From Candidatus Saccharimonadota bacterium (GTDB lineage Bacteria; Patescibacteriota; Saccharimonadia; Saccharimonadales; JACDFO01), in contig JACDFO010000002.1 of the NCBI GenBank assembly GCA_013815785.1, positions 1 to 47,231 of the forward strand: a stretch of DNA of 47,231 bases, read 5' to 3'. The translations under genes and the position numbers were made by a program. Position 1 is the stretch's first letter; each line of letters starts with the position of its first letter. This document shows, one piece after another, positions 22,407-47,231 of this stretch. The notes under the pieces are model-generated. The model saw only the letters and a list, made by a program, of their open reading frames with translations, searched no databases and was not told where the DNA came from.

Positions 22407-22784
22407 TCAGTTATAGAGCGTCTGATCAACGAGAGCTACCAAATCTTGTGGCGCTAAACTGGATTTCAAAACGAAGCTATGAGCACCGAGACCAAGCATT
22501 TCCGCCTCTATTTTGCTGTCTAGTAGGTTGCTATAGACGACTATTTTTGTATTCGGATAATCGTCTAAGTCGACCTTTCTCATGAATTCTTTACCATCCA
22601 TGACTGGCATGAATATGTCGAGCAATACCATGTCTGGCCGTAAGGCCTTTAACCGTTTCAATCCTTCGAGACCGTTATTGGCGGTATGGACTTCATAGCC
22701 CTTAGAAGAAAGGATAATCTGATAAACGTCTTGAAGTACTTTTTCATCTTCAACTATAAGTATGGAAAGTATGGACTTACTCAC
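22407..22784 (-). CDS. Single-domain response regulator (receiver only)
   Basis: 125 aa. ILIVEDE, phospho-acceptor context VLLDIFMPVMDG, and VVYSN..K. No output domain. Confidence 0.9.
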   Translation of the reverse strand: MSKSILSILIVEDEKVLQDVYQIILSSKGYEVHTANNGLEGLKRLKALRPDMVLLDIFMPVMDGKEFMRKVDLDDYPNTKIVVYSNLLDSKIEAEMLGLGAHSFVLKSSLAPQDLVALVDQTLYN

Positions 22785-25213: not shown

Positions 25214-25407
25214 TATCCTATTGTACCCTGTCTGAAAAGTGTCAAGATACATTAAAGTTGTCAAAAGTGCTACCAACCAAATAGTACATAAATGTCTAAC
25301 GCAATTGGTACAGCTTAGTGCACGAAGTTAGAACCAACTTCATTAAAATAATTGATGATACTGCCGAATAGATTTTTGTTCGTCTTACTTGTGAAATGTA
25401 CCTCTAC

Positions 25408-26508
25408 TCAAGTTAAAGGCACTAACACTTTAAATTCCGTACCAACATTTAATTCACTCCGGTAATTAATGGTGCCCCCAATCTTATCAAGAAGGATTTT
25501 TACCATATAAAGACCCAAGCCTGTTCCTTCAGTGAATTCCTGCATAGCGTTTTCCGCTCTTGAAAACTGTTCAAACAGGTAAGGTTGATACTCTTTCGGT
25601 ATGCCGATTCCTGTATCGCTGATGGAAATCAAAGCTTTTTTATTCATCAGCTTAACAGTTACATTTATAGAACCTTTTATTGGGGTATATTGAACCGCAT
25701 TAACTATGAGATTAGAAAAAATTTCATGAAATATCGATGTATCGGTGTTTATAACAGGTAGATTTCCATCCAAACTTAATGAATATCCTAGTTTTTTCTC
25801 AACCAATCTTGGTTCAAGTTCTTTATGTATTTGTTTAAATATTTCACTTATCCTAATATCACTTTTTTGAATAAGCCTGGTGGCACTTTGCACTCGAGCT
25901 ATATTTAAAAGCCCTTCAACTAATGCAATCATTCGCTCGGATGAACTGACAAGGGTATCTGCTAATTGTTGCTGCTCTTTATTTAGTCCACCTGCATATT
26001 CATTGCTTAACATATGTGCGTAAGTCATGATCACTGTCATGGGAGTCCTAAGCTGGTGTGAAGCGAGATTAATAAAATTATTTTTCATAAGAGATAATTT
26101 ATATTCACTCGTAATATTCTGTATTAGATATACGATTTGCTCGCTGTTTGGAAGTATTTGTTTAGAAACCCTAAAGAATAAATGGTTGTTTTCTTTATTG
26201 GTCCACTCATAAACTGCCTCTTCGCCTTTTAGCGTTTCTGTCACATTATTCGCAATATTAATGTATTCGGGTAAAGGACTCTCTGTTTGTTTGATGGGAA
26301 ATGCTTCATTAAATGACTGCCCGAGTAAGAATATACGTTGAGTTGCCAATAAATTAGCAAAGTAATTATTGCTGAAAATAATATTACCTAACTTGTCAAC
26401 AACACATACGGCATCATTAATACTGCCTATCACAAGGTCCATCCATCCTAAGATTCTATGTACTTCTAATAATTCTTCAGAGAAGAATTTATCTTTACTT
26501 ACGCTCAT
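25408..26508 (-). CDS. PAS-domain sensor histidine kinase
   Basis: 366 aa. H-box ASHQLRTPMTVI plus NAVQYTP, DTGIGI and GTGLGLY. The start overlaps the upstream PAS gene by 14 nt. Confidence 0.9.
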   Translation of the reverse strand: MSVSKDKFFSEELLEVHRILGWMDLVIGSINDAVCVVDKLGNIIFSNNYFANLLATQRIFLLGQSFNEAFPIKQTESPLPEYINIANNVTETLKGEEAVYEWTNKENNHLFFRVSKQILPNSEQIVYLIQNITSEYKLSLMKNNFINLASHQLRTPMTVIMTYAHMLSNEYAGGLNKEQQQLADTLVSSSERMIALVEGLLNIARVQSATRLIQKSDIRISEIFKQIHKELEPRLVEKKLGYSLSLDGNLPVINTDTSIFHEIFSNLIVNAVQYTPIKGSINVTVKLMNKKALISISDTGIGIPKEYQPYLFEQFSRAENAMQEFTEGTGLGLYMVKILLDKIGGTINYRSELNVGTEFKVLVPLT

Positions 26509-26869
26509 CTAGTGGGTAATCAATTATTGCAGCAAATCTCCAGGATGAATCCTTTTTATCACCTAATATGTAATGATTTGAGCTTTTTACTGTGCCATCT
26601 TTATATAAAACACTGAGAGACAAGGGTTTTCCTAGCAATTCTGTTGTTTCGGTTGCTAAGTATCTTGCAAAGCCTACTGTATGGGCGTTTCTCATATGTG
26701 TTGGCATAATTTCCGTTACTGATTTTCCTATTAGGTCTTCCGCAGTCCATCCATATTCTTCAGTAAAAGCGTCGTTAATATATGTGAATATACTTTGTTG
26801 GTCGATTGCCACTACGGGTAAATCTTCTAATGCAATTAATTCATCATATGTAGCAGGGTATTGAGACAT
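26495..26869 (-). CDS. Stand-alone PAS-domain protein
   Basis: 124 aa. FTYINDAFTEEYGWTAEDLIGKSVTEIMP is a typical PAS core. It is translationally coupled to the downstream kinase. Confidence 0.8.
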   Translation of the reverse strand: MSQYPATYDELIALEDLPVVAIDQQSIFTYINDAFTEEYGWTAEDLIGKSVTEIMPTHMRNAHTVGFARYLATETTELLGKPLSLSVLYKDGTVKSSNHYILGDKKDSSWRFAAIIDYPLDERK

Positions 26870-26980
26870 GCAACCTCCATATTTGTCATCTTACTTTATC
26901 ATAATTTACTCCTAAAATTTACCCCAAAATATACCATGTATCTGGTCCAGTTTTTGATCAACTGATGTTAGATTGTTACA

Positions 26981-27116
26981 CCCGGACGGATTCGACTCAC
27001 TTTCAGCGAGCCCGTCGCAATATCTTTGCAAACCAGTTTGCAAGAGTTGACTTCCTTGCGAATTGCCACCGGCAATTCTCACACCGACCCTTGGCGTCGA
27101 CAGTTCGAATCCGTCC
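26981..27116. ncRNA. Multi-hairpin structured element closed by a 12-bp helix made of tRNA T-arm sequence (strand unknown)
   Basis: GGACGGATTCGA (26984-26995) is the exact reverse complement of TCGAATCCGTCC (27105-27116). Inside lie perfect or near-perfect hairpins at 27025-27044 and 27060-27078, plus shorter ones. CCCGGACGGATTCGA (26981-26995) duplicates tRNA-Arg 27163-27177. Confidence 0.35.
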
Positions 27117-27124
27117 AGACCACG

Positions 27125-27147
27125 AAAAAACCGAGCACTAGGCTCGG
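27125..27147 (-). terminator. Intrinsic terminator downstream of tRNA-Arg(TCG)
   Basis: CCGAGC-ACTAG-GCTCGG hairpin (27131-27147), followed on the minus strand by TTTTTT. Confidence 0.7.
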
Positions 27148-27155
27148 CTCTTTCG

Positions 27156-27232
27156 TGGTACGCCCGGACGGATTCGAACCGCCGACCCTCTGTTCCGAAG
27201 ACAGATGCTCTATCCAGCTGAGCTACGGGCGC
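27156..27232 (-). tRNA. tRNA-Arg (anticodon TCG), CCA encoded
   Basis: The reverse complement GCGCCCG TA GCTC AGCTGGATA GAGC A TCTGT CTTCGGA ACAGA GGGTC GGCGG TTCGAAT CCGTC CGGGCGT A CCA forms a cloverleaf. Confidence 0.9.
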
Positions 27233-27396
27233 GTATTTGCGGTATTAGTGTATCATCTTATCAGATGAGCCATGGTATCAAAATCCAGAGTCTTATTGCT
27301 CGTTTTCATCTGTTGAACCAATAGTATAGAACAAAATTTTCTCTCTATCAGTTTACTTACTTAATCACATTCGCCCGAAGTTGCTACAATGGTGTT

Positions 27397-30246
27397 ATGG
27401 CAAACGAATTCGACACGTCTACAAATAAGTCTATACCGAAGAACGTAACAACTACGTCTACTCAAGACATAATCGATTACAAGCATCTGAGCGAACAAAG
27501 GTTTAAGCTCATTATTGAACATGTCCCGGTACTTATTTCGTACGTCGATGCCGGACATCGGTATCGTTTTGTAAACAAACAATACGAAGCTTGGTTTGGG
27601 CATAGTACAGAGGATATCCAAGGTAAGCACTTACGAGAAGTACTGGGTGCGAAGGCCTATAAAGCTTTAAAGCCTCATATTGATAGTGTACTTGCTGGTA
27701 ACACAATAAGTTTTGAGACAAACGTTCCATACAAAGGGGCCGGCAACCGATATGTCAGCGCCAATTACATACCCCACATAGAAGACAACAAAGTAGTCGG
27801 CTTTTTCGTGATGGTTATGGATTTATCTGATCGCAAAAAAATCGAAGAAAATCTTAGATATCGGACGGCCTTACTCGAGGCACAGAGCGAAGCAACACCT
27901 GACGGCATATTGATTGTCGACGCAAGAGGAAAAATGCTGTCATTCAATAAGCGTTTTATACAAATGTGGAAAATTCCAAAGCACATTAGTGGTGCCAACG
28001 ATGACTCGGCGGCGCTTAAATACGCTATGACACAGCTAGTGGACCCAAAGGGCTTTATAGACAGAGTGAACTATTTATACGCTCACCAGGATGAGTCGAG
28101 TCACGAGGAAGTTTACTTTAAGGATGGCCGAGTGTTTGACAGGTATGGTTTGCCGGTTGAAGGCGATGATGGGCAGTACTATGGATGGGCATGGCATTTT
28201 CGTGACATTACTACACAGAAACGAGCAGAGGAAAAAATTATCCTTAGAGAAGAGCAGCTGAGGGTTGCCCTTAAGGCGTCACGGATGGGCGTTTGGGAAT
28301 GGGATAGCCAGAACCGAAAGTTGACGTGGTCAAACGAAGTAAAGCGATTGTACGGTTTAAAGATAAGCGAATCAATTACGTACGAAAAATATATCAGCTT
28401 GCTTCATCCTGATGATCAGCCAAGGATGCAAAAAACAATTGCAAATGCCCAAAAGACGGGAAGTAAATATACTATTGAGCATCGTGTTGTTTGGCCGGAT
28501 GGTAGTATCCACTGGCTTCTTGGGAAGGGTCAGGCATTTTTGGAAAATGGCAAGATAGTGCGGATGGCAGGTATATCGCTAGACATCGATGATCGAAAAA
28601 AGGCCGAAGAATTATACCAGAGCCAAAACGAGTATCTTATAGCTTTGAATGAGACGGCTCTTGAAATTGCTAGAGGTTTGGGAGGTCAATTATCAATACT
28701 AAAAATCATTCTAAGCCGAGCTACTAAGCTGACTCAAACACCAAACGGTTATATCTACCTTATGGATGATGATAAATCTCAATTAAGTGTTCGTGTTGCC
28801 ACAGGAGTTTTTAAGCCTTACATAGGTCATGTGATTAAAAAAGGTGAGGGTTTGGCTGGTAAAGTTTGGAAAACCGGCAAACATCTTACAGTTGGGAATT
28901 ACGATATATGGACCGGGCGGCAGGCTACGTTTCCGAAAGGTATCGTTAGCGCTGCTGTCGGTTTGCCTCTGTACTCCGGTCGAAGGATAATCGGTGTCAT
29001 CGCATTAGGTTACGATACGCCGATTAAGAAATTTCCTGCTGAAAAGATAACCGCATTAAAGCGTTTGGCAGACCTTGCTTCGATTGCGTTGGACAATAGT
29101 AGGTTGTATTTAGAATCTCAAGAACGTGAGGAGCGGTTCAGGACTCTGGCAGACACCGCACCTGTATTCATATGGCTAGCAGATTCAGACAAGAACGTTT
29201 CGTACTTCAATAAAGGTTGGCTAGATTATGCAGGACGTACTTTGGAGCAAGAAATGAATTCTGGCTGGGAAGAGACTATATATCCAGCCGATCTCTTAGA
29301 GTGTAGACGTATATACGAAACATCTTTCGACGCCCGTGTACCCTTTACCCAGGAATACCGCTTAAGACGTCATGATGGGCAATTCAGGTGGATGCTAGAC
29401 ACCGGCATACCGCGGTTCTCTTCAGCTGGTGAATTTCTGGGCTATATCGGCTCGACTGTTGATATTCATGATTTAAAAAATACGACTCAGCGTACCCTGG
29501 AGCTCGAAGCCATTACAGCTAGTTTGACCGAACAGCGTGCTGAGCTAGTGACACTGAACAACGCAAAGGATGAGTTTATTTCATTGGCTTCACACCAGTT
29601 ACGCACCCCTGCAACTGGCGTAAAACAATTTATTGGCATGTTGCTGGAAAATTATTTCGGTGAGCTTACAGAAGATCAGCGCACCATGCTCGATTACGCC
29701 TACGAGAGCAACGAACGGCAGCTAGAAGTCATAAATGACCTCCTAAAAGTAGCTCAGGTGGATGCTGGCAAAGTCGTGCTTGCAAAAGAAAAGCACGATA
29801 TAAGCGATATGCTAGAAGACATCATGCAGGAACAGCGTGCTCAGTTTGCAAAACGCAAACAAAGGGTTGTGCTAGATAGACCTACAGAAGCAATCTTTGC
29901 CCCTGTCGATGTTCGACGCATGCGGATGGTTGTTGAAAACCTTATTGATAATGCTAGTAAATACACGCCAGAAGGCAAACGTATCACCGTAAGTATCAAC
30001 CAAACAAAATCAGGCGAGTTCGTAACAATTAAAGTCAAAGACGAAGGAGTAGGCATTGCAGAAGAAGATATATCCAAACTATTTCAAAAGTTTTCTCGCC
30101 TAGACAATCCGCTTTCTATCCAGGTTGGTGGTACGGGTATTGGGTTGTACTGGGCAAAAAAGATCGTTGATTTGCACGGCGGAAACATTACTATAAAGTC
30201 GATATCGGGCGAAGGTTCGACCTTTATTGTAAAGATTCCTGCTTAA
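27397..30246 (+). CDS. Multi-PAS/GAF sensor histidine kinase
   Basis: 949 aa. At least three PAS repeats, a GAF-like segment (GEGLAGKVWKTGKHL...IGVIALGY), H-box ASHQLRTPATGV, and NLIDNASKYTP, DEGVGI, GTGIGLY. Confidence 0.92.
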   Translation: MANEFDTSTNKSIPKNVTTTSTQDIIDYKHLSEQRFKLIIEHVPVLISYVDAGHRYRFVNKQYEAWFGHSTEDIQGKHLREVLGAKAYKALKPHIDSVLAGNTISFETNVPYKGAGNRYVSANYIPHIEDNKVVGFFVMVMDLSDRKKIEENLRYRTALLEAQSEATPDGILIVDARGKMLSFNKRFIQMWKIPKHISGANDDSAALKYAMTQLVDPKGFIDRVNYLYAHQDESSHEEVYFKDGRVFDRYGLPVEGDDGQYYGWAWHFRDITTQKRAEEKIILREEQLRVALKASRMGVWEWDSQNRKLTWSNEVKRLYGLKISESITYEKYISLLHPDDQPRMQKTIANAQKTGSKYTIEHRVVWPDGSIHWLLGKGQAFLENGKIVRMAGISLDIDDRKKAEELYQSQNEYLIALNETALEIARGLGGQLSILKIILSRATKLTQTPNGYIYLMDDDKSQLSVRVATGVFKPYIGHVIKKGEGLAGKVWKTGKHLTVGNYDIWTGRQATFPKGIVSAAVGLPLYSGRRIIGVIALGYDTPIKKFPAEKITALKRLADLASIALDNSRLYLESQEREERFRTLADTAPVFIWLADSDKNVSYFNKGWLDYAGRTLEQEMNSGWEETIYPADLLECRRIYETSFDARVPFTQEYRLRRHDGQFRWMLDTGIPRFSSAGEFLGYIGSTVDIHDLKNTTQRTLELEAITASLTEQRAELVTLNNAKDEFISLASHQLRTPATGVKQFIGMLLENYFGELTEDQRTMLDYAYESNERQLEVINDLLKVAQVDAGKVVLAKEKHDISDMLEDIMQEQRAQFAKRKQRVVLDRPTEAIFAPVDVRRMRMVVENLIDNASKYTPEGKRITVSINQTKSGEFVTIKVKDEGVGIAEEDISKLFQKFSRLDNPLSIQVGGTGIGLYWAKKIVDLHGGNITIKSISGEGSTFIVKIPA

Positions 30247-35998: not shown

Positions 35999-36370
35999 CT
36001 AGGTAGTAAGTTCGGTTTTAACCATTTCAGCAACCTGCCGTGGAGTCATTTCTGCCTTGACTATAAAACGTCGTACACCGTTCTCGCGCAGGGTTGTAGG
36101 TGCTTCTTGTTCGCCCATATTGGTCAAGATAATAACCTTAGTATCCTTACCCCAATCTGTTTTACGCAGTTCTATCAGCATTTCATCGCCAGACATTTCG
36201 GGCATCATAAGATCTAACAAAATAATATCTGGCTGCATTTTTTCGACCAGCTCTAGGCCTAGCTTACCATTTTCTGCTGTCTCTACTTCGAAGCCTTCCG
36301 CCTCAAACTTAATGCGGTACATCTGGGAAATTGCTTGGTCGTCTTCGATAATCGCAACTTTAGTGGCCAT
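35999..36370 (-). CDS. Single-domain response regulator (receiver only)
   Basis: 123 aa. VAIIEDD, ILLDLMMPEMSG, VIILTN..K. Confidence 0.9.
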   Translation of the reverse strand: MATKVAIIEDDQAISQMYRIKFEAEGFEVETAENGKLGLELVEKMQPDIILLDLMMPEMSGDEMLIELRKTDWGKDTKVIILTNMGEQEAPTTLRENGVRRFIVKAEMTPRQVAEMVKTELTT

Positions 36371-36394
36371 ATATGTATCCTACCCTAGTATTTG

Positions 36395-36763
36395 TTACGC
36401 CGCTAGGGCTTCTTGCACTACTACTACAACCTGGGACGGTGTGTAATTAGCTTTGACCATATATCGTAAAATACCCAATTCGTATAAACCATCAGGCGCT
36501 TCGTATTCACTGATATTTGTCAGAATTATCACTTTCGTATCTTTGCCGTTCTCAGTTTTACGGTAGTTGGCTAATACTTCACTTCCGGTCATCTGGGGAA
36601 GCATAAGATCCAGAAGCACAAGGTCAAACTTGGTGGTATAGATCATATCCAGCCCTGCTTGACCATCATAAGCCACAATGCATTCATACCCAGCAGACTC
36701 AAGTTTAATCTTGTACATGTCAGCAAGTGAAATGTCATCTTCTATAATAGCTATCTTAGGCAT
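36395..36763 (-). CDS. Single-domain response regulator (receiver only)
   Basis: Start at MPKIAIIEDD (36763). VLLDLMLPQMTG, VIILTN..K. It sits in tandem with the previous receiver. Confidence 0.88.
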   Translation of the reverse strand: MPKIAIIEDDISLADMYKIKLESAGYECIVAYDGQAGLDMIYTTKFDLVLLDLMLPQMTGSEVLANYRKTENGKDTKVIILTNISEYEAPDGLYELGILRYMVKANYTPSQVVVVVQEALAA

Positions 36764-36830
36764 TATTAATCTGATTATATACTTAAAACGTAAGAGAAGA
36801 AACTCCACCACAACCATGGGTGTATAAATA

Positions 36831-36860
36831 TTGACAATTAGTCATACTTATTGTTTTAAT
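36831..36860 (+). promoter_or_regulatory. Sigma70-like promoter (TTGACA, 18 nt, TTTAAT) predicting a leaderless mRNA
   Basis: TTGACA at 36831-36836 and TTTAAT at 36855-36860. The ATG at 36867 lies 7 nt after the -10 box and has no SD upstream. Confidence 0.45.
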
Positions 36861-36866
36861 ATCTAT

Positions 36867-39044
36867 ATGGAAAAAGACGAAGAATTTCCGAGGTATCAAA
36901 TACCAGGGGCGCCGGGAGAGATTGCGGCAAGCTTTCATACCCCAGAGGGAATCTTAGAAGTCGATTCATACCAAGATGAAATATTTGCAATTCTAAGACT
37001 AGCTGATGGAACTAAGAGTAGGTCCAATATTATCAAGAGCGCGGTGGAATCAGGGCTTGATGAAGAATTTACTTCTATGGTTATGGATGACTTAGAAAGG
37101 CTAGGTGTCATAGGTGACAGCAGGCAAATATCTAAACTTTTCCATATTTATACTAAAAATCCCGCTAGGTATAGCCATGATTTAAGCAACGAAGAAGTTT
37201 ATGAAATAACGTCACGACCTTATGAGGTTGAAAAAGAAGGCCAGCGCCATCAATTTTCACGTACTAGTACAGACCTTACTTCGTTATTAAGTAAACGCGA
37301 ATCAGTCAGAGGTTTTGAAAGTAGAGCTGTAGAATTAGATAAAATAAGTGAAATACTTGATGCTGCGTACTCTTTTAACATAACACCAGTACCGTCGGCG
37401 GGAGGTCTATACCCATTAAAATTATATTTACTGATCAAAGACGGGAATGAGCTACCGGCGGGATATTATCAATATGACCCCACTGATTCAGCCTTAATTT
37501 GTTTCAACGACAATTTTTCCGAAAAAAGGCTACAGTACATTTTTAACTCGGATTCACTCGTACATAACGCACAGTTACTATTTGTGATAGGCGCAGATAT
37601 GGATAGGCATTCAGAAAAATATGCTGATAGAGGCTACAGATATACTTTACTAGAAGCAGGTCATGTCGCTCAAAACATTCATTTAGCATGCACAACTCTA
37701 GATCTCGGTTCACTAGAATATGGCGGCTTCAATGATGATTTACTTCACTCCGAGTTAAACCTTGATGAGCGCATACAACCACTAATTACCATCGGTGCTG
37801 GATATAAAAATACTTTTGAAATTCAGGATTCTATATCTACTCTAGCATTGTTGGAGAAAGAACTAGTGGGTAAAAATAAACCGATAGACGAAGTATCAAT
37901 AAATTTTCCTCCAAACTCAACTAGTCCATCTTATTATCAAGCCAGCGCACACTATGTTATTCCAAATGTTAGTTATCCCGATACACATGACGATAGATAT
38001 GCTTCGGGAGCAGCGACCTCTATAGAACTTGCTAAAATTAAAGCGATAGCAGAAGCATATGAGAGATATGTAAGCGGTAAGATAAGGTTTGATATTAAAG
38101 ATAGTGCGACCAATTTACGGGGCAAATGGCTTAATCCAAATTTAATACGACCGTTAAGTTCAAGTCAGATTAATTTTATGTCCGGAATCGAACAATTCCA
38201 GGAAGATTTGTTACTGGAATGGGTAAAGGGAAGTGAACTTCATAGTAACGAAGATATTTTTGTTCCAATTGACTTAGTTTATTATCCGTTAAACGAAAAA
38301 GTTCTTCGCAGGAATCCCATCGCTCTTGCTGACTCATCCGGTGTTGCGGCGCATGTTGATAGAAATATTGCCATAGAAAAAGGATTGCTGGAACTCATAG
38401 AAAGGGATGCAATTATGAGAAATTGGTTTAAGAAAGCGCCACTCCCAAAACTTTCACAAGAATTACTAGATGAAGATATAAGCAGCCGTGTTCTAAATTT
38501 GGAAAAAAATGGCTACATTGTCGATGTACTAGATATGACCGAGCCTAACGCAAAAGCAGCCGTAATAAATGTAGTTATCAGAAACAAGGAAATGAATTAT
38601 CCGTACTTTGTTAATGGTGCTTCAGCAGCACTTAATTATCAGGATGCAATAGATAAAGCTCTTGAAGAGGCAGAACTTGGTTTGAAGTACGCACTAATCG
38701 GTGAAAAAAATGACGCAAAATCGAAAAATCACATACATTCACCTGCTGATCATGGGAATTACTACTTGCATCCAGAAAACGCAGTAAATATTTCTTGGCT
38801 ATGGAGCGGAGAAATAAAGTATCATCTACAGAATATTGACGATAGTAAAAAACTAATTGATAACTATAATCCTATAGTGATAAACTTGGAGTTACAGAGT
38901 GCTCCTTTAAATGTTGTCCGGATTATAGAGATATCACTGGTACCAATTAGCTTTGGTCTCGGTGCCGAGTATTACACGCATCCATTCAGCGGTATTTCAA
39001 ATCCGCAACAATACCAGCCCTATATTCCGCACTATTTCGCTTAA
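36867..39044 (+). CDS. Fusion protein: N-terminal winged-helix (RRE-like) region, SagB-type FMN dehydrogenase, YcaO cyclodehydratase (TOMM/azole RiPP maturase)
   Basis: The SagB/nitroreductase part includes SVRGF, PSAGGLYPLKLYLL and YRYTLLEAGHVAQN. The YcaO part includes ASGAATSIELAKIKAIAEAYERY, SSGVAAHVDRNIAIEKGLLELIERDA and a Pro-containing C-terminus YQPYIPHYFA. The ORF track begins at a TTG (36831) that is really the -35 box. Confidence 0.85.
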   Translation: MEKDEEFPRYQIPGAPGEIAASFHTPEGILEVDSYQDEIFAILRLADGTKSRSNIIKSAVESGLDEEFTSMVMDDLERLGVIGDSRQISKLFHIYTKNPARYSHDLSNEEVYEITSRPYEVEKEGQRHQFSRTSTDLTSLLSKRESVRGFESRAVELDKISEILDAAYSFNITPVPSAGGLYPLKLYLLIKDGNELPAGYYQYDPTDSALICFNDNFSEKRLQYIFNSDSLVHNAQLLFVIGADMDRHSEKYADRGYRYTLLEAGHVAQNIHLACTTLDLGSLEYGGFNDDLLHSELNLDERIQPLITIGAGYKNTFEIQDSISTLALLEKELVGKNKPIDEVSINFPPNSTSPSYYQASAHYVIPNVSYPDTHDDRYASGAATSIELAKIKAIAEAYERYVSGKIRFDIKDSATNLRGKWLNPNLIRPLSSSQINFMSGIEQFQEDLLLEWVKGSELHSNEDIFVPIDLVYYPLNEKVLRRNPIALADSSGVAAHVDRNIAIEKGLLELIERDAIMRNWFKKAPLPKLSQELLDEDISSRVLNLEKNGYIVDVLDMTEPNAKAAVINVVIRNKEMNYPYFVNGASAALNYQDAIDKALEEAELGLKYALIGEKNDAKSKNHIHSPADHGNYYLHPENAVNISWLWSGEIKYHLQNIDDSKKLIDNYNPIVINLELQSAPLNVVRIIEISLVPISFGLGAEYYTHPFSGISNPQQYQPYIPHYFA

Positions 39045-39110
39045 ACTGCCAGGCGGTTTAAGCTTGAGATAAATTTTAATCATCAACTACTTCAGGAGGA
39101 GGTGATAAAA

Positions 39111-39245
39111 ATGAAGGTACTCTCTGCAGTGTTGAAGCCATACGAAGCTACCCCCAAGGGTAGCTTCGAAAACTGCAACAACGGTTGTAGTGGCAGTGGA
39201 TCCTGCTCTCGTTGCTCAGGCAACTACGGCAACCAGTCCCACTAG
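39111..39245 (+). CDS. 44-aa RiPP precursor peptide candidate (Cys/Ser/Gly/Asn-rich core)
   Basis: Absent from the ORF track (under 60 aa). SD AGGAGGAGGTGA lies 6 nt before the ATG. Translation: MKVLSAVLKPYEATPKGSFENCNNGCSGSGSCSRCSGNYGNQSH*. It sits 66 nt downstream of the YcaO fusion gene. Confidence 0.75.
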   Translation: MKVLSAVLKPYEATPKGSFENCNNGCSGSGSCSRCSGNYGNQSH

Positions 39246-39258
39246 CACAACCCACACC

Positions 39259-39327
39259 AGCCCTGGCATATCAATTGTGTGATGATGTACGCGCGTCATC
39301 ATCAATACAATCGATTATGCCAGGGCT
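39259..39327. terminator. Long hairpin between the convergent precursor and protease genes
   Basis: AGCCCTGGCATA (39259-39270) pairs with TATGCCAGGGCT (39316-39327). An inner GATGATG/CATCATC stem is present. Confidence 0.6.
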
Positions 39328-39329
39328 CT

Positions 39330-39941
39330 TTACTTGAGAAGTTTTTTAGCTGATGTAGAAACTAATTTTGAGGCTGGTTTTTTTAGTGTATTACTAGCAG
39401 ACTTTGCAAGCTGATAACCATAAGAATAGCCAAACCATCTAGGTACGTCGTTATTACCTGTTATAAACCACTCTATATGGTTATATTTTTTACTATTTAA
39501 TTCTTTATTAGCCATTCCAATTTGATCTTTGGTTATTCTAACGGTTGCATATATCGGAGTTTCACCACTACACTCTTCTTCAAACAAAGTTGCAAGCCCT
39601 TCGGTTAATAACGCCTCCTTTAAGGTTTCGCCATAACCTGGGTTGCGCCATCTTACTGCATGGTGTATTTCGTGTAACATACCCATGTAAAGATTTTTTT
39701 CTAGAATTTTCTTAGATGGATCGATGTTTATGTAAACAACATTACTGGAAGGAGTATAACCTCCCACTCCAATTTCTGGGATTGTGCTAGACGGAGCATC
39801 GATTATAAGAATGTCTATTTTGTCAGCTCCTAAAACGCCAAAAGCAGTATCGGATGCTTTCTTAAAAGCATTTTCAATTACGTTTATATGCTTGTCCATT
39901 GACCCGGAAGCATTTGCTATGTGCAACTTTATACTGTTCAT
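39330..39941 (-). CDS. DUF2268-like putative Zn-dependent protease (HExxH)
   Basis: 203 aa. MLHEIHHAVRW contains HExxH, and LLTEGLATLFEE follows downstream, as in predicted DUF2268 metalloproteases. Confidence 0.65.
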   Translation of the reverse strand: MNSIKLHIANASGSMDKHINVIENAFKKASDTAFGVLGADKIDILIIDAPSSTIPEIGVGGYTPSSNVVYINIDPSKKILEKNLYMGMLHEIHHAVRWRNPGYGETLKEALLTEGLATLFEEECSGETPIYATVRITKDQIGMANKELNSKKYNHIEWFITGNNDVPRWFGYSYGYQLAKSASNTLKKPASKLVSTSAKKLLK

Positions 39942-43340: not shown

Positions 43341-44777
43341 ATGGATAACATCCCCACAACTGAAACAAAGCGTCTTTTTACTGGGCGCAAACAGCTTAAG
43401 CAAGATATTGAGCATGTAACTCAAGAGATGTATAAGCGTAACTTTGAACTGGCAGAAGCCAACAAAACACTTTCGCTTCTACGTGCAATAGATAGTATCG
43501 TACTTGAATCACACGATGAATTAGGGATACTTTGTCAAAACATAGCATCCGCGATTGCCAAGTATACTAGTTATCCGCTTGTGGCAATTCTTGTCAACCC
43601 TCCGCACAAAGACTATCTAGAGATGCTGGGGCTAGCTGGCGCAAGTGGGATTGAGGACATGTTTAAGTCATGCAAGGTTAAGGAAGACGACCATGAAACA
43701 TGGTTGGTTAGCCCTGAGCAAAAGGCGATTCTTGATATTTCTTCTGTCGATAGTCGGCTTATTGCTGAGGTGCTCTGTCTGTCGGAAGATCAGGTTAACG
43801 ATCTGAAAAATGAAAGTGGTATTAAAACAATCTTGTTATTAAAGTTGCTATCAAGACACCGTCTGGTTGGGGTGTTGGCAATCGGGTTAAATCAGGAAAA
43901 AATTGAGGTCCATGATAAACAAGAACAACTAATTGAGCGTCTATCTGAGACCGTAGGGATTGCACTCGATAGCAAATTGCTTTTTGAAGAAAATCAGCAA
44001 GTCCTGCGTCAGTTACAAAAAACGAACGAAAAATTAAAGACACTGGACGAAACGAAGGATGAGTTCATTAGCATGGCTTCTCATCAACTTCGCACGCCGT
44101 TAACTTCCGTTAAGGGCTACCTGAGCATGGTTTTAGAGGGTGATGCGGGCGAGATAGGTGAAATGCAGCGTAAACTGCTGGATCAAGCGTTTGTAAGTAG
44201 TCAGCGGATGGTTTATTTGATAGCGGATTTGTTGAACGTATCGCGTTTGCGTACGGGTAAGTTTGTTCTAGAGGCCGTGCCATCTAATTTGGCAGAAGTG
44301 GTAGAGGGGGAGATTGGCCAACTCAAGGAAACCGCCGCTGGGCGTGGACTGAAACTTACTTATGATAAACCAGCTGACTTCCCAGAACTGTACTTGGATG
44401 AAACAAAAATCCGGCAGGTAATTATGAATTTTACTGATAACGCCATTTACTACACACCTAGCGGCGGGCATATCGTGGTCAAGCTAGAAGACAAGGGTGA
44501 ATCGATTGAGTTTACCGTAACCGACGACGGCATGGGAGTCCCGAAAGTACAACAACCGAACTTATTCACCAAGTTTTATCGGGCAGATAATGCCCGCAAG
44601 GCTCGACCTGACGGTACTGGTCTTGGGCTATTCATGGCTAAGAAGGTGATTGTAGTCCAAGGAGGCAACCTATTATTTACTAGTCAAGAAGGTAAGGGCA
44701 GTACATTTGGCTTTGCATTCCCTAAATCTAAATTACAGCCACCACCCACACCAGAGCCGACTGCAACTAGTAGCTAA
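43341..44777 (+). CDS. GAF-like sensor histidine kinase with no TM segment
   Basis: 478 aa. H-box ASHQLRTPLTSV plus NFTDNAIYYTP, DDGMGV and GTGLGLF. Confidence 0.9.
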   Translation: MDNIPTTETKRLFTGRKQLKQDIEHVTQEMYKRNFELAEANKTLSLLRAIDSIVLESHDELGILCQNIASAIAKYTSYPLVAILVNPPHKDYLEMLGLAGASGIEDMFKSCKVKEDDHETWLVSPEQKAILDISSVDSRLIAEVLCLSEDQVNDLKNESGIKTILLLKLLSRHRLVGVLAIGLNQEKIEVHDKQEQLIERLSETVGIALDSKLLFEENQQVLRQLQKTNEKLKTLDETKDEFISMASHQLRTPLTSVKGYLSMVLEGDAGEIGEMQRKLLDQAFVSSQRMVYLIADLLNVSRLRTGKFVLEAVPSNLAEVVEGEIGQLKETAAGRGLKLTYDKPADFPELYLDETKIRQVIMNFTDNAIYYTPSGGHIVVKLEDKGESIEFTVTDDGMGVPKVQQPNLFTKFYRADNARKARPDGTGLGLFMAKKVIVVQGGNLLFTSQEGKGSTFGFAFPKSKLQPPPTPEPTATSS

Positions 44778-44958: not shown

Positions 44959-45060
44959 ATCCTAACCCTTGGGTGGTTGGAAGTAATCCATAGCGGATTG
45001 ATTAACAGAGGTGTAACAGATGGCAGGATAACCGGCAACGGTATTATTACTGCTTTTTTT
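44959..45060 (+). ncRNA. Candidate ~100-nt small RNA or orphan cis-regulatory leader
   Basis: Bounded by the promoter above and an intrinsic terminator: a GCAG...ACCG-GCAA-CGGT...CTGC hairpin (45023-45053) plus T7 (45054-60). It has an internal AATCC-ATAGC-GGATT hairpin. No credible ORF lies inside or immediately downstream. Confidence 0.4.
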
Positions 45061-45158
45061 ACTTCTGAAAACAATCGGTGAACCCAGGTGGTGACGGGTA
45101 CATTAACAAGTCGAATCATTTTGAAACATATTTTTTTGTAACAGGGAATCTACCCCTT

Positions 45159-45224
45159 GTGCAGACCAGCTAGTATTAGACAGCTAGTAACCCCTAGCGA
45201 CTCCTAGTATTAGACGGTCTGCAC
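45159..45224. repeat. 9-bp inverted repeat enclosing two 12-nt direct repeats (CTAGTATTAGAC)
   Basis: GTGCAGACC (45159-45167) pairs with GGTCTGCAC (45216-45224). CTAGTATTAGAC occurs at 45170-45181 and 45204-45215, 34 nt apart, with a central GCTAG/CTAGC palindrome. Confidence 0.6.
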
Positions 45225-45360
45225 ATGGTTGTAGCGTTGTGAGTAATAGATTGAGCTTTATCGCTCTCTGTTGGCTCCAGAAGCTCCCTGGTGCGGAAAG
45301 ACGCAATTCAAACTACAACTACAAAACTTTTGTGAAACCGCAAAGGTCATTTTGTTCCTT

Positions 45361-45412
45361 TTCAGAACAGCGTCTAACACACGCAAATTCGTGTGCAGAG
45401 CGCTGTTCTGAA
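45361..45412. repeat. Long two-tier hairpin
   Basis: TTCAGAACAGCG pairs with CGCTGTTCTGAA (12 bp), with an inner CACACG/CGTGTG stem (6 bp). There is no flanking T-run. Confidence 0.55.
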
Positions 45413-45539
45413 CCCCTACCTAGGCAAAGATATAAGAGTAACCCATTAACCTGGGTGTACTCGAAAAGAGCGATTCCGCTCTACAGCCAGGCCCACCATA
45501 GTCTGCGAATCTTCTGCCAAAAGCAGGGGAGGAGAAAAA

Positions 45540-46409
45540 ATGACCACCGAACACCTGGATATCCCCGAAGAGGAGCTCGACAAGATCCTCGGAGGAGCAG
45601 GCAAGGCTGCGCGCAGCGACAACGACGACGCCCTCATCAAGGACGTGGCCGGCATCGATGCGCAGATCGGGAACATCCTCTACGGCGCGTCCGTCCTCAC
45701 CCAGCGCAAGCTGGACCGGAAGGCGAAGGTCGAAGAGGAGATCCGTGATCGGCAGCACCAGCGCGAGCAGATCCGCAACCGGTTCCAGCACATGCTGAGC
45801 ACCGTCACGGACGAGCCCGCCCTGGCTCCCGCACCCGTCGCCCCCGTGGCGCTCGTGTCGGATCCGGTCAACCCGCCGTCGGCCCCCCAGCCGTCGGTTT
45901 CGTCCAGTGGTCCCGTGGTGGACGAGCCCGACGAGGATGAACTCCTCGAAGGCCTGTACACCCGTGACGAGCTCATGGAGCTGTCCGATTCGGACCTCCA
46001 GCGGCTCGCCAGCGAGTACGGGATCGCCACCGTGGTCACCGACGCAACTCGCGTCATCGTGATCGCCACGATCATCGTCCAGCAGTCGGCGTACTGTCAG
46101 TGTGAAGGCATCGAGGATCCCAACGGGACTTCGACGACTCGTGTCACGGTCATCGACCGCGTTCGCGACTCCCGGCACAACCCCCGGAGCTGGAACATCT
46201 GGCAGTGGGTCGGAGCGATCATCGGCGCCCTCATCGGCATCGTGATCTACCGGGTCACCAACGATTGGGAGCAGGACATCGAGGGCACCTGGAACAGGGT
46301 GTTCGACATGTTGCTGTTCATCGCCCTCGTGGGCCTCGGCTTCTTCGGCGGCGCCATCATCGGTGCGGCTGTGGAGGACAGGCAGGAGAACTTGCGCTCG
46401 CGCTCGTGA
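45540..46409 (+). CDS. High-GC hypothetical protein: double-glycine-type leader, Pro/Ala-rich linker, Rho_N/SAP-like helix pair, two C-terminal TMs
   Basis: 289 aa, SD GGGGAGGAG. N-terminus MTTEHLDIPEEELDKILGG, then LYTRDELMELSDSDLQRLASEYGI, and the TMs WVGAIIGALIGIVIY and LLFIALVGLGFFGGAIIGAAV. Third codon positions are strongly G/C. Confidence 0.7.
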   Translation: MTTEHLDIPEEELDKILGGAGKAARSDNDDALIKDVAGIDAQIGNILYGASVLTQRKLDRKAKVEEEIRDRQHQREQIRNRFQHMLSTVTDEPALAPAPVAPVALVSDPVNPPSAPQPSVSSSGPVVDEPDEDELLEGLYTRDELMELSDSDLQRLASEYGIATVVTDATRVIVIATIIVQQSAYCQCEGIEDPNGTSTTRVTVIDRVRDSRHNPRSWNIWQWVGAIIGALIGIVIYRVTNDWEQDIEGTWNRVFDMLLFIALVGLGFFGGAIIGAAVEDRQENLRSRS

Positions 46410-46546
46410 TCCGTTCCACGTCGAAAGGTTTGGCTATTACCCTGTGCTCACGCACAAATCGGCCCAAGTTGTCCGTTATCTTGACTGAGGCTTGCCTTAG
46501 TGAAAACGGAAGTCCCATTCCGCTTGCCCACCTTTGGAGGTGAACA

Positions 46547-47231
46547 TGAGCAAGCACACCCGCAGTTCCGGCATCAAGGCTTCGGCCGTGTTGCTAGCAG
46601 TACTCATCGCCGTCGGCCTCCTGGTCGGCAGCGGAGAGGTGTCCAACGCCAGTGATCGCACGGATGAGTCGGCAACGACACCCACCATGCCCACGGCGGA
46701 AGAAGATGCGCGTGAGTGCCCCGCAACCTGGATCATCGTTCAGGTCGATCACGAGGACAGCAACCGTTGGTTCGCCGACGGTGTCCAAGAGATCGAGGAA
46801 GCATCCACGCCTGAGGAAGCAAGGGAAGCAGCTCGTACCTGGCTCAGCCTAGTGCGTCGTGACCCCCAGCTCCTCAAGGGTGCAGCATCGTACTTCCTTG
46901 CCGGCCGTCAGGTCGACGCATCCACCTTGGTGGATGGGGAGTGCGCCAGTGAGGATGCCGAATCGCTGACAGCCGAAATCGAGCTGGCCATCGCGCAAGC
47001 GAAGGTTACGCCCGAAGAAGCTCCGGTAGATGGCACCAACTCTGGTACCGATGCTGAGGGAGACGTGACGTCTGCCAACCAGGCAGGAATCACAGGTGAT
47101 CGTGCAGCGATCAAGGTCGTGTTGAAGGACGGAACAACCGTCTGGATCATGAGCCGCTGCGGTAACCCCGTCGTTCAGGGACCGGCCCCCGTGCCCCCCG
47201 GACCGACGGATAACCCGCCGCCGCCGCCCCC
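46547..47231 (+). CDS. High-GC secreted or membrane-anchored hypothetical protein (partial; runs off the window end)
   Basis: Not in the ORF track because it has no stop. SD GGAGGTG lies 4 nt before the ATG. Translation begins MSKHTRSSGIKASAVLLAVLIAVGLLVGSGEVSNA... and ends in the Pro-rich GPAPVPPGPTDNPPPPP. Confidence 0.65.

What the first reader, a model, noticed from the sequence alone, without database searches (positions are those of the whole stretch)
36831..39941. Compact, apparently undescribed TOMM-type RiPP cassette in a CPR-like genome
Four adjacent elements form a minimal azole-peptide biosynthetic unit. (1) A strong promoter. (2) One 725-aa ORF carrying both a SagB-type dehydrogenase and a YcaO cyclodehydratase. 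(3) 66 nt downstream, a short ORF with a very strong SD whose C-terminal 24 residues are 4 Cys, 6 Ser, 5 Gly and 5 Asn, which is the composition expected of a heterocyclisable core. (4) A convergent HExxH protease that could remove the leader. The precursor is missing from the ORF track, so the enzyme would look like an orphan in automated annotation. RiPP antibiotic-type chemistry in an ultra-small, host-dependent bacterium would be biologically notable, for example in competition on the host surface or manipulation of the host.
Basis: partly seen in the sequence, partly recalled or inferred. Interest (0 to 1): 0.9.

Follow-up and report, generated by a model that had tools for sequence, protein, structure and literature searches.

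The report
Compact azole-peptide gene cassette in Saccharibacteria
A tiny host-dependent bacterium carries a three-gene kit (one three-domain enzyme, an unannotated 44-residue peptide and a zinc protease) that most likely makes a microcin-B17-like modified peptide; the kind is already predicted in such bacteria, but this fused enzyme layout and its peptides do not appear to have been described.

Summary
ORF 36867-39044 (725 aa) carries a SagB-type FMN dehydrogenase and a YcaO domain. Sixty-six nt downstream, behind a strong Shine-Dalgarno site, lies a 44-aa ORF with a Cys/Ser/Gly/Asn-rich tail. A convergent DUF2268 HExxH protein follows. Only the "strong promoter" is weak.

New findings:
- The enzyme's first ~85 residues fold as a RiPP recognition element, so it is an RRE-dehydrogenase-YcaO tri-domain protein with no E1-like partner.
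- The family has about 327 representatives, mostly from Saccharibacteria/Patescibacteria, including cultivated human oral TM7.
- About 28 of 35 related loci keep a short adjacent ORF with a basic leader and a Gly/Cys/Ser-rich core, and SD sites precede most of them.
- DUF2268 is the only other conserved neighbour (29/35 loci, variable orientation, HExxH...E kept).
- The precursors are absent from public protein sets.

Interpretation: a linear azole peptide (TOMM-type) cassette. "Undescribed" holds only in part, because Sharrar et al. 2020 already predicted YcaO + nitroreductase + peptidase clusters in CPR genomes. The fused layout without a C protein and the DUF2268 partnership form a new variant. 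The chemistry and biological role are untested.

The parts
36831..36860 (+). Possible promoter: -35 TTGACA (36831-36836), 18-nt spacer, TGn plus TTTAAT (36852-36860). It would place the transcript start at or next to the ATG, giving a leaderless or SD-less enzyme mRNA.
   Evidence: Read from the sequence. The consensus scan did not call it because the -10 lacks A at position 2. There is no SD before ATG 36867. Weak evidence.
36867..39044 (+). Tri-domain azole synthetase gene (725 aa): RRE, SagB-type FMN dehydrogenase and YcaO cyclodehydratase.
   Evidence: The start at ATG 36867 is supported by N-terminal alignment with homologues. AF2 model: pLDDT 88.9, pTM 0.85.
36891..37121 (+). N-terminal RiPP recognition element (about residues 9-85; three strands then three helices).
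   Evidence: AF2 secondary structure. In the Foldseek PDB search the top hit is the PbtF RRE (8t19), followed by TruD, McbB, PqqD, ThcOx, TbiB1, LynD, MccB, TigE and CteB. Sequence hits to PqqD and wHTH families are weak.
37269..37811 (+). SagB-type FMN dehydrogenase domain (about residues 135-315). R144-x-S146-x-R148 and K251-Y252 are invariant or nearly so.
   Evidence: PF00881 and TIGR03605 above cut-off. Invariant columns. PDB profile hits to 3eo7, BmdC, McbC and ThcOx. Fold hits to McbC at TMt 0.72.
37884..39041 (+). YcaO cyclodehydratase domain (about residues 340-725). E396/E399 and E509/E512/R513 are invariant. The C-terminus is ...PHYFA.
   Evidence: PF02624. Invariant columns. LELIERDA aligns with LEIIERDA of the ATP-bound M. 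jannaschii YcaO. Fold hits to LynD, TruD, MusD, McbD and M. kandleri YcaO.
39097..39105 (+). Shine-Dalgarno site AGGAGGTGA, 5 nt before the precursor ATG.
   Evidence: Sequence. SD-like motifs precede 22 of 25 precursor candidates in related loci.
39111..39245 (+). Unannotated precursor peptide gene (44 aa): leader MKVLSAVLKPYEATPKGSFE plus core NCNNGCSGSGSCSRCSGNYGNQSH. The leader/core boundary is approximate.
   Evidence: unique composition. Clear homologues lie next to the closest enzymes in L081 and L082. Peptides of the same kind occur in about 28 of 35 loci. Not present in protein databases.
39260..39326 (.). Long hairpin between the convergent precursor and DUF2268 genes; a likely bidirectional terminator.
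   Evidence: RNA fold: -41.3 kcal/mol, z = -7.74, and none of 200 shuffles folds as well. The simple terminator scan did not call it because the stem-loop is longer than its pattern allows and the U-tract is weak.
39330..39941 (-). DUF2268 (YjaZ-like) zinc metallopeptidase, the proposed leader peptidase. HEIHH at residues 90-94 and E114. NCBI calls a 189-aa version.
   Evidence: PF10026, E 4e-22. It is the only neighbour conserved with the enzyme (29/35 loci; 38/83 by HMM) and its orientation varies. H90, E91, H94 and E114 are conserved in 28-29 of 30 sequences.

Best explanation
This is a three-gene cassette for a linear azole-containing peptide (LAP/TOMM type). It moves as a unit among Saccharibacteria and other Patescibacteria.

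Proposed mechanism:
1. The enzyme gene and the precursor gene are probably co-transcribed. The precursor has a strong SD and the enzyme has none, which would favour an excess of substrate. A strong hairpin ends the unit.
2. The 44-aa precursor binds through its roughly 20-residue leader (conserved h-x-V/L-x-h-x-x-P-Y-E/D/K motif) to the N-terminal RRE of the enzyme, probably as an added beta-strand.
3. The YcaO domain uses ATP to cyclodehydrate Cys and Ser of the Gly/Asn-rich core to thiazolines and oxazolines.
4. The FMN dehydrogenase domain in the same polypeptide oxidises these to thiazoles and oxazoles. The nitroreductase fold is normally dimeric, so the enzyme is likely a homodimer.
5. 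The DUF2268 zinc metallopeptidase removes the leader.

Export and target are unknown. The Gly-rich Cys/Ser cores resemble microcin B17, so an antibacterial role is plausible.

Shown here: domain identities, the RRE fold (from a model), conservation of catalytic motifs, and conservation and co-location of the precursor and DUF2268. Inferred: every chemical step, the dimer, the leader-RRE contact, the role of DUF2268, and the biological function.
For: - Domains: PF00881 and PF02624 are significant, and TIGR03605 is above its cut-off.
- Motifs invariant across 36 homologues: K251-Y252, R144/S146/R148, E396/E399 and E509/E512/R513. ELIERD aligns with an ATP-bound YcaO.
- Structure: a confident model (pLDDT 88.9) matches LynD, TruD, McbD and MusD for the YcaO part and McbC, BmdC and ThcOx for the dehydrogenase part.
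- RRE: the structural neighbours of the N-terminal domain are almost all RREs of RiPP enzymes.
- Precursor: its composition is unique in the window. Homologous peptides lie next to the closest enzymes at 53-54 % identity in otherwise unrelated flanks. Peptides of the same kind are present in about 28 of 35 loci with two leader types, and SD sites precede 22 of 25.
- DUF2268: it is the only conserved neighbour, found in 29 of 35 loci in convergent, co-directional and divergent arrangements, and the zinc site is conserved.
- Precedent: CPR LAP clusters with YcaO, nitroreductase and peptidase were predicted before (PMC7298704). The MccB17 core is Gly-rich with 4 Ser and 4 Cys turned into azoles, and its leader extends a beta-sheet of the RRE-like McbB domain 1 (PMC6722960; PMC6395948).
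Against: - No E1-like C protein or Ocin-ThiF F protein is present in the window or conserved in 35 loci. In characterised TOMM systems that partner potentiates the YcaO (PMC4603692), so activity of this layout is unproven.
- TIGR03604 (the SagD-type model) scores below NCBI's cut-off (144.5 vs 219.25).
- The C-terminus is PHYFA rather than the Pro-rich tail I recall for TOMM YcaOs (from memory).
- Individual RRE structure matches are marginal (E 3.5e-3 to 0.5, TM about 0.5-0.6), and sequence hits to PqqD are weak.
- No transporter or immunity gene is conserved.
- About 7 of 35 loci show no recognisable precursor, and 6 of 35 show no DUF2268; some of these contigs are truncated.
- No expression or mass-spectrometry data exist.
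Confidence: 0.8

Rival explanations
1. The cassette makes a modified peptide, but DUF2268 is not the leader peptidase. It could instead be a self-protection or degradation enzyme, a non-catalytic partner that replaces the missing C protein in potentiating the YcaO, or a processing enzyme for something else. In that case leader removal would fall to a housekeeping protease, as TldD/E does for MccB17.
For: MccB17 uses a general, unlinked metalloprotease (PMC6722960). No solved or characterised relative of DUF2268 was found, and only two unrelated papers mention it. Six of 35 loci, and all the distant non-CPR fusions, lack it. The enzyme lacks the usual partner protein, so a new partner is conceivable.
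Against: The HExxH...E zinc-site residues are conserved in 28-29 of 30 sequences, which argues for catalysis rather than scaffolding. Tight adjacency in 29 of 35 loci despite changing orientation fits a pathway step. Sharrar et al. also found a peptidase in CPR LAP clusters.
Confidence: 0.15
2. The YcaO domain carries out different chemistry on the peptide, such as backbone thioamidation or amidine/macroamidine formation, or produces azolines only. The product would then not be an azole peptide.
For: YcaOs without an E1-like partner are known mainly from non-azole or atypical chemistry, for example bottromycin, which Cox et al. [quoted passage not shown] TIGR03266 (McrA thioamidation) gives a weak hit. 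Methanogen YcaOs are among the best structural matches (TMt 0.70). TIGR03604 is below its cut-off.
Against: A SagB-type dehydrogenase with invariant Lys-Tyr is fused in the same chain in about 327 family representatives, which makes sense only if azolines are produced and oxidised. The cores are rich in Cys and Ser next to Gly, as in MccB17. No TfuA or sulfur-donor gene is nearby.
Confidence: 0.05
3. The small ORF is a chance reading frame, and the enzyme is an orphan whose substrate lies elsewhere or is a protein.
For: The ORF is short, was not called by any gene finder, and matches no HMM family.
Against: It is the only one of 349 short ORFs in the window with this composition. It has a near-perfect SD. 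Clear sequence homologues sit next to the two closest enzymes in different genomic flanks. The same kind of peptide is found in about 28 of 35 loci.
Confidence: 0.02

Closest known systems
Microcin B17 system of E. coli (McbA precursor; McbBCD synthetase; TldD/E leader removal)
   Same: It pairs a YcaO cyclodehydratase with a SagB-type FMN dehydrogenase (McbD TMt 0.70, McbC TMt 0.72). The core is glycine-rich with Cys/Ser sites (PMC6722960). The leader is recognised by an RRE-like domain through beta-sheet extension (PMC6395948), and McbB is among the RRE structural hits. The leader is removed by a zinc metalloprotease.
   Different: McbBCD is three separate proteins in a B4C2D2 octamer, with an E1-like, zinc-binding McbB. 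Here there is one polypeptide and no E1-like domain. The MccB17 operon has an exporter (McbEF) and an immunity gene (McbG), and neither is found here. Its protease is TldD/E (HExxxH, unlinked), whereas here it is a linked DUF2268 (HExxH). The leader is 26 aa there and about 20 aa here.
Predicted LAP clusters of CPR bacteria (Sharrar et al. 2020, mBio, PMC7298704)
   Same: They come from CPR/Patescibacteria genomes and contain YcaO, nitroreductase, peptidase and an adjacent Cys/Ser-containing precursor. They are bioinformatic predictions with no product known.
   Different: They are described there as separate YcaO and nitroreductase genes with an 84-aa precursor. The phyla listed are Microgenomates, Parcubacteria, Peregrinibacteria and Katanobacteria, not Saccharibacteria. 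That paper does not mention a fusion, an RRE, the absence of a C protein or DUF2268 in the passages read. Some fused loci found here (L026 Parcubacteria, L029 Taylorbacteria) come from the same kind of data sets, so the two sets may overlap.
Cyanobactin enzymes: heterocyclases LynD/TruD/PatD and oxidase ThcOx
   Same: The RRE is fused in cis to the catalytic domain. ThcOx carries its RRE N-terminal to a SagB-type FMN oxidase, the same order as here. LynD and TruD are the top whole-model matches.
   Different: LynD and TruD contain an E1-like domain between the RRE and the YcaO. The oxidase and the YcaO are on different proteins. The products are macrocyclised by PatG-type proteases.
F-protein-dependent cyclodehydratases (thiopeptides, heterocycloanthracin) and stand-alone YcaOs (bottromycin)
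   Same: The RRE of the Ocin-ThiF-like protein PbtF is the best structural match to the N-terminal domain. Bottromycin YcaOs also work without an identifiable C protein (PMC4603692).
   Different: In F-dependent systems the RRE sits on a separate protein and the YcaO still carries a truncated E1-like domain. Bottromycin YcaOs have no RRE and no fused dehydrogenase.

Membership tests
TOMM / LAP biosynthetic cluster (as defined in Cox et al. 2015, PMC4603692) | YcaO-superfamily D protein (cyclodehydratase) | tested here: met
   PF02624: E 4.5e-39, 135 bits against a cut-off of 25.7. Fold matches to LynD, TruD, McbD and MusD. Acidic ATP/Mg motifs are invariant and align with an ATP-bound YcaO.
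TOMM / LAP biosynthetic cluster | Membership of the SagD-type YcaO subfamily (NCBIfam TIGR03604 above its curated cut-off) | tested here: not met
   TIGR03604 is the best YcaO-type model (E 3.8e-42) but scores 144.5 bits against a cut-off of 219.25. This is consistent with NCBI's generic name 'YcaO-like family protein'.
TOMM / LAP biosynthetic cluster | E1-like C protein (or CD fusion, or Ocin-ThiF F protein) partnering the YcaO | tested here: not met
   The 725-aa model has no E1-like domain; residues are accounted for by the RRE, the nitroreductase fold and YcaO. No ThiF, TIGR03603 or TIGR03882 hit occurs in any window protein scanned. Apart from DUF2268, no neighbour is conserved in 35 loci.
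TOMM / LAP biosynthetic cluster | Leader-binding RRE (normally the N-terminal domain of the C or F protein) | tested here: met
   It is present, but fused to the dehydrogenase-YcaO protein. The topology is beta3-alpha3, and the structural neighbours are almost only RREs. This rests on a predicted model, and binding was not tested.
TOMM / LAP biosynthetic cluster | SagB-type FMN dehydrogenase (B protein) with the Lys-Tyr motif | tested here: met
   TIGR03605 scores 120.1 bits against a cut-off of 78.4. K251-Y252 is invariant in 36 sequences. That the Lys-Tyr motif is diagnostic is from my memory of the TOMM dehydrogenase literature. McbC and ThcOx match by profile and fold.
TOMM / LAP biosynthetic cluster | Adjacent precursor with an N-terminal leader and a Cys/Ser/Thr-rich core | tested here: met
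   Window 39111-39245. The composition is unique in the window and conserved in kind in about 28 of 35 loci.
TOMM / LAP biosynthetic cluster | Product contains thiazol(in)e/oxazol(in)e rings and is linear | not testable with these tools
   This needs co-expression and mass spectrometry/NMR.
Pfam DUF2268 / gluzincin-type metallopeptidase (proposed leader peptidase) | DUF2268 profile match with an HExxH motif and a downstream Glu ligand | tested here: met
   PF10026: 79.1 bits against a cut-off of 23.6. H90, E91, H94 and E114 are conserved in 28-29 of 30 sequences. Protease activity and substrate were not tested. No solved relative was found by sequence.

The most novel reading that the evidence does not exclude
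The RRE-dehydrogenase-YcaO protein is a self-sufficient, single-polypeptide azole synthetase. It needs no E1-like or Ocin-ThiF partner because its own N-terminal RRE does the substrate tethering. Together with a dedicated DUF2268 leader peptidase, it makes microcin-B17-like polyazole peptides in Saccharibacteria, including human oral TM7. These episymbionts would use the peptides against their host bacteria or against competitors.
Probability: 0.4. Interest if true: 0.7.

Novelty: new variant of a known kind. Interest (0 to 1): 0.55.

Why it matters
For RiPP enzymology, this would be the smallest complete azole-forming machinery: one enzyme, one protease and one peptide, about 3.1 kb in all. 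It would also be a natural test of whether the E1-like C protein is dispensable when an RRE is fused in cis, which is useful for engineering azole peptides.

For CPR biology, the cassette is widespread in Saccharibacteria and is present in a cultivated human oral TM7 strain (Ca. Nanosyncoccus nanoralicus, L015). The earlier, purely metagenomic prediction of LAPs in CPR therefore becomes experimentally testable in a co-culture system.

For annotation, a whole family of Gly/Cys-rich precursors is missing from public protein databases, and DUF2268 gains a testable function.

Tried and rejected
- I looked for an E1-like, ThiF or docking partner, an ABC exporter and a pentapeptide-repeat immunity gene among all window ORFs of about 155 aa or more (Pfam; NCBIfam) and among conserved neighbours in 35 loci. 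None was found.
- The sequence-level RRE test gave only weak wHTH, PqqD, Lant_dehydr_N, PaaA and PqqCD hits, so I relied on the structure model instead.
- A direct sequence comparison of a TM7 precursor with McbA in the PDB returned nothing, because the sequence is low-complexity. I could not retrieve the McbA sequence from the two MccB17 papers searched for it. The MccB17 resemblance therefore rests on the published description of its core (Gly-rich, 4 Ser + 4 Cys, ending GSHI).
- The consensus promoter/terminator scan called neither the proposed promoter nor the hairpin. The hairpin was confirmed by folding, and the promoter remains weak.
- DUF2268 against solved structures gave no relative.
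- The main YcaO review (PMC5406272) is not held.
- Literature searches for Saccharibacteria/TM7 with YcaO, RiPP or LAP, and for YcaO with SagB and 'fused', found no description of this architecture. [quoted passage not shown]
- The two upstream response regulators and the downstream EamA transporter were considered as cassette parts and rejected, because they are not conserved with the enzyme.


Full report

Yes. The + strand holds a 725-aa ORF from ATG 36867 to 39044 (an in-frame TTG lies at 36831). A 44-aa ORF runs from ATG 39111 to 39245, exactly 66 nt after the first stop codon. A 203-aa ORF lies on the - strand at 39330-39941.

Pfam places a Nitroreductase domain at residues 142-310 (E 1.5e-24) and a YcaO domain at 381-643 (E 4.5e-39). 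The - strand protein is DUF2268, 'predicted Zn-dependent protease' (E 4e-22). NCBIfam TIGR03605 (SagB family peptide dehydrogenase) scores 120.1 bits, above its cut-off of 78.4. TIGR03604 (SagD-type YcaO) is the best YcaO model but scores 144.5 bits, below its cut-off of 219.25.

AGGAGGTGA at 39097-39105 lies 5 nt before the small ORF's ATG. Of 349 short ORFs (30-120 aa) in all six frames of the window, it is the only one with at least 4 Cys and at least 15 C/S/T/G in its last 24 residues.

The 'strong promoter' is the weak part. There is a perfect TTGACA at 36831-36836. The best -10 element, after an 18-nt spacer, is TGtTTTAAT, and the consensus scan did not call it. If it is used, transcription would start at or next to the ATG, and the enzyme gene has no SD.

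A 67-nt hairpin (39260-39326) separates the convergent genes. It folds at -41.3 kcal/mol with z = -7.7, and none of 200 shuffles folds as well.

**2. Where the window comes from**

The enzyme is identical to NCBI MBA3758124.1, 'YcaO-like family protein [Candidatus Saccharibacteria bacterium]', on a 47,231-bp contig, which is this window.

The rest of the window is ordinary chromosome. It encodes RecA, RecX, RNase Y, YmdB, TsaE, sortases, MurA-, MurB- and MurD-type enzymes, SHMT, FolD, Glu racemase, an ornithine-type decarboxylase, several PAS histidine kinases and six tRNAs.

**3. A third domain**

The first ~135 residues match no Pfam family. A 36-sequence alignment shows a conserved pattern, GIxF...IxI...IWxIL...NG....I........II.DL..LG.L.DSR.

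AlphaFold2 on that alignment gives a confident model (pLDDT 88.9, pTM 0.85). Residues 14-79 form three strands followed by three helices. The isolated domain folds the same way (pLDDT 88.4).

A Foldseek search of the PDB with the isolated domain returns the RRE of the Ocin-ThiF-like protein PbtF as top hit (8t19, E 3.5e-3, TMq 0.57, rmsd 3.1 Å over 87 columns). After that come almost only RRE-bearing RiPP enzymes: TruD, McbB, PqqD, ThcOx, TbiB1, LynD, MccB, TigE, CteB and a lasso B1 protein. Each hit is marginal on its own, but the list points consistently to one fold. Sequence searches gave only weak wHTH, PqqD, Lant_dehydr_N, PaaA and PqqCD hits.

The whole model matches LynD, TruD, MusD, McbD and methanogen YcaOs for the C-terminal part. 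It matches McbC, BmdC and ThcOx for the middle part (profile-versus-PDB).

The protein is therefore RRE - SagB-type dehydrogenase - YcaO. Nothing in it resembles the E1-like 'C protein'.

**4. Catalytic competence**

These residues are invariant or nearly so across 36 homologues that share only 32-54 % identity with the window protein:
- R144, S146 and R148, an RxSxR motif typical of FMN-binding nitroreductases (from my own knowledge).
- K251-Y252, the Lys-Tyr pair that I recall as essential in TOMM dehydrogenases.
- E396 and E399 (AEAYER), and E509, E512 and R513 (ELIERD).
- The C-terminal PHYFA.

The ELIERD segment aligns with LEIIERDA of the ATP-bound M. jannaschii YcaO.

**5. The family**

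An exhaustive HMMER scan of 1.84 billion cluster representatives finds 327 with E ≤ 1e-30. Nearly all of the best 150 are 700-740 aa and align in one stretch from the RRE region to the C-terminus.

The names given by sources are mostly Saccharimonadales, Saccharibacteria or Patescibacteria, with a few others such as Nitrospira and Streptomyces caniscabiei.

A scan of one genome per species returned 80 loci. About half are Saccharibacteria or other Patescibacteria. They include human oral MAGs and the cultivated strain Ca. Nanosyncoccus nanoralicus TM7_KMM_G3_1_HOT_351 (L015). More distant fused homologues occur in Kribbella, Achromobacter, Reyranella, Bacteroidaceae and others.

**6. Is the short ORF conserved?**

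Yes.

*Closest relatives.* The two closest enzymes (53-54 % identity) sit in unrelated flanking genes but have the same cassette. Compare the three precursor sequences:
- L081: MLKLLSATKRPYEAKQKSSASNCNNGCGNGGGSCGRCSGNCSR
- L082: MSLLSVTLQPYEGLQKGATNAGGNSNNGCGNGGGSCGRSSGNCSG, plus a second copy, MKILSATQQPYKGLQAATSTSTTCASGGSCNCCSSGNG
- Window: MKVLSAVLKPYEATPKGSFENCNNGCSGSGSCSRCSGNYGNQSH

*Wider set.* Across 35 loci (34 fetched loci plus the window) with near-full-length enzymes, about 28 have a short ORF beside the cassette genes with a basic leader and a Gly/Cys/Ser-rich tail.

*Position varies.* In many loci the ORF is downstream of the enzyme. In the oral TM7 group it is upstream (MKKLLDVKRTPYDVNVAAAGNCGGAGCGSGCGGGCGGGGGSCGGGSGCNGGGGGGCGGGGK). 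In a distant sub-clade it lies beyond DUF2268 on the opposite strand.

*Two leader types.* The first is h-x-V-x-V-x-P-Y-(E/D/K). The second is KKFSWxVTSK, which goes with QCxxGGGGNGKCG-type cores.

*Translation signals and annotation.* SD-like sequences precede 22 of 25 candidates. The window peptide and the two oral TM7 peptides tested are all absent from a 15-billion-protein collection. These genes are therefore commonly missed by gene callers, although JGI did call the 45-aa gene in L082.

**7. What else is conserved?**

I clustered all ORFs of at least 90 aa within ±6 kb in the 35 loci. Exactly one family other than the enzyme is shared: DUF2268, in 29 of 35 loci.

It is always adjacent to the enzyme, but it is convergent, co-directional or divergent in different genomes. 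That pattern is the mark of a functional link rather than inherited synteny.

An HMM of these proteins finds it in 38 of all 83 fetched loci. All of these belong to the CPR-dominated clade, and none lies next to the Kribbella, Achromobacter or Bacteroidaceae fusions.

H90, E91, H94 and E114 (HExxH plus a Glu 20 residues later, a gluzincin-like arrangement) are conserved in 28-29 of 30 sequences.

No E1-like or ThiF protein, Ocin-ThiF protein, ABC exporter or immunity-type gene is conserved, and none is present in the window. The two receiver-domain proteins upstream and the EamA transporter downstream of the window cassette are not conserved with it.

**8. Most likely mechanism**

The leader docks on the cis-RRE. 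The YcaO domain cyclodehydrates Cys and Ser with ATP. The fused FMN dehydrogenase oxidises the azolines to azoles. DUF2268 then removes the leader.

Shown here: the domain identities, motif conservation and gene linkage. Inferred: the chemistry, the probable dimer, the leader-RRE contact and the protease role, by analogy with McbBCD, LynD and ThcOx (PMC6395948; PMC6722960).

The cores resemble the MccB17 core as described in the literature: glycine-rich, with four Ser and four Cys converted to azoles. A gyrase-poison-like activity is therefore a reasonable guess, but only a guess.

**9. Comparison with what is known**

The cassette works like a TOMM/LAP system.

By the definition of Cox et al. 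2015, a TOMM cluster has a cyclodehydratase made of an E1-like C protein plus a YcaO D protein. This cassette fails that criterion, and it also falls below the TIGR03604 cut-off. It is therefore not a canonical member.

Its RRE is attached to the dehydrogenase, as in ThcOx, and both are fused to the YcaO.

I found no paper describing this layout or linking DUF2268 to RiPPs. [quoted passage not shown]

'RiPPs in CPR' is not new, however. Sharrar et al. 2020 predicted a LAP cluster (YcaO, nitroreductase, peptidase, 84-aa precursor) in a Microgenomates MAG. [quoted passage not shown] Saccharibacteria were not among the phyla they listed. Some of the fused loci found here come from the same kind of data set (L026, L029), so the two sets may overlap.

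**10. Verdict**

The finding is best classed as a new variant of a known kind: a three-gene LAP cassette built on a tri-domain enzyme with no E1-like partner, a dedicated DUF2268 peptidase, and a large unannotated family of Gly/Cys-rich precursors. The cassette occurs in cultivable human oral TM7.

Interest is moderate (0.55). A RiPP enzymologist would want to know whether the C protein is dispensable, and a CPR biologist gains a testable system. The class itself was anticipated, and no experimental evidence exists.

Noticed in passing
window 45000-47231: GC content jumps to 0.54-0.61 against about 0.42 for the rest of the contig. ORFs overlap on both strands, none has a Pfam or NCBIfam hit, and there are no tandem repeats. 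This may be foreign DNA or a mis-join at the contig end.
   Followed up: partly
window 45540-46409 (+): A 289-aa ORF lies in the high-GC segment. Its N-terminus, MTTEHLDIPEEELDKILGGAGK..., resembles a double-glycine (ELxxIxGG) secretion leader (from memory), and its C-terminal ~80 residues contain two hydrophobic stretches. It matches no known family.
   Followed up: no
window 22781-30246 and 43341-44777; 35999-36817: The density of signalling genes is unusual for a reduced genome. There are four histidine kinases, two of them with multiple PAS/GAF domains (831 and 949 aa). Two receiver-only response regulators lie in tandem directly upstream of, and divergent from, the cassette. One receiver homologue also lies near the cassette in L009 and L025.
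   Followed up: partly
window 16247-17767 (-): A MurA-like EPSP_synthase-fold enzyme is fused to an N-terminal Cro/C1-type HTH domain, which is an odd domain combination.
   Followed up: no
L082 6250-6387 and 6636-6752; L027 45-179 and 2586-2783: Some cassettes carry two different precursor genes. L027's core is an extreme Cys-Asp repeat (DSDNCGCDCECDSDCQCDCGCGCNCDCAGDCGQD), unlike the Gly-rich cores found elsewhere.
   Followed up: partly
L014, L048 (labelled Gammaproteobacteria), L038 (Bdellovibrionales), P0023 (Nitrospira sp.): Cassettes typical of the CPR clade (with the DUF2268 gene in L014 and L038, and a PY-leader precursor in L014) occur in MAGs labelled as non-CPR phyla. This could be horizontal transfer or mis-binned CPR contigs.
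   Followed up: no
window 39330-39941 (-): NCBI's protein for this gene is 189 aa (P0121, 93 % of the ORF), which suggests a start at the internal Met15 rather than at the first ATG of the ORF.
   Followed up: no
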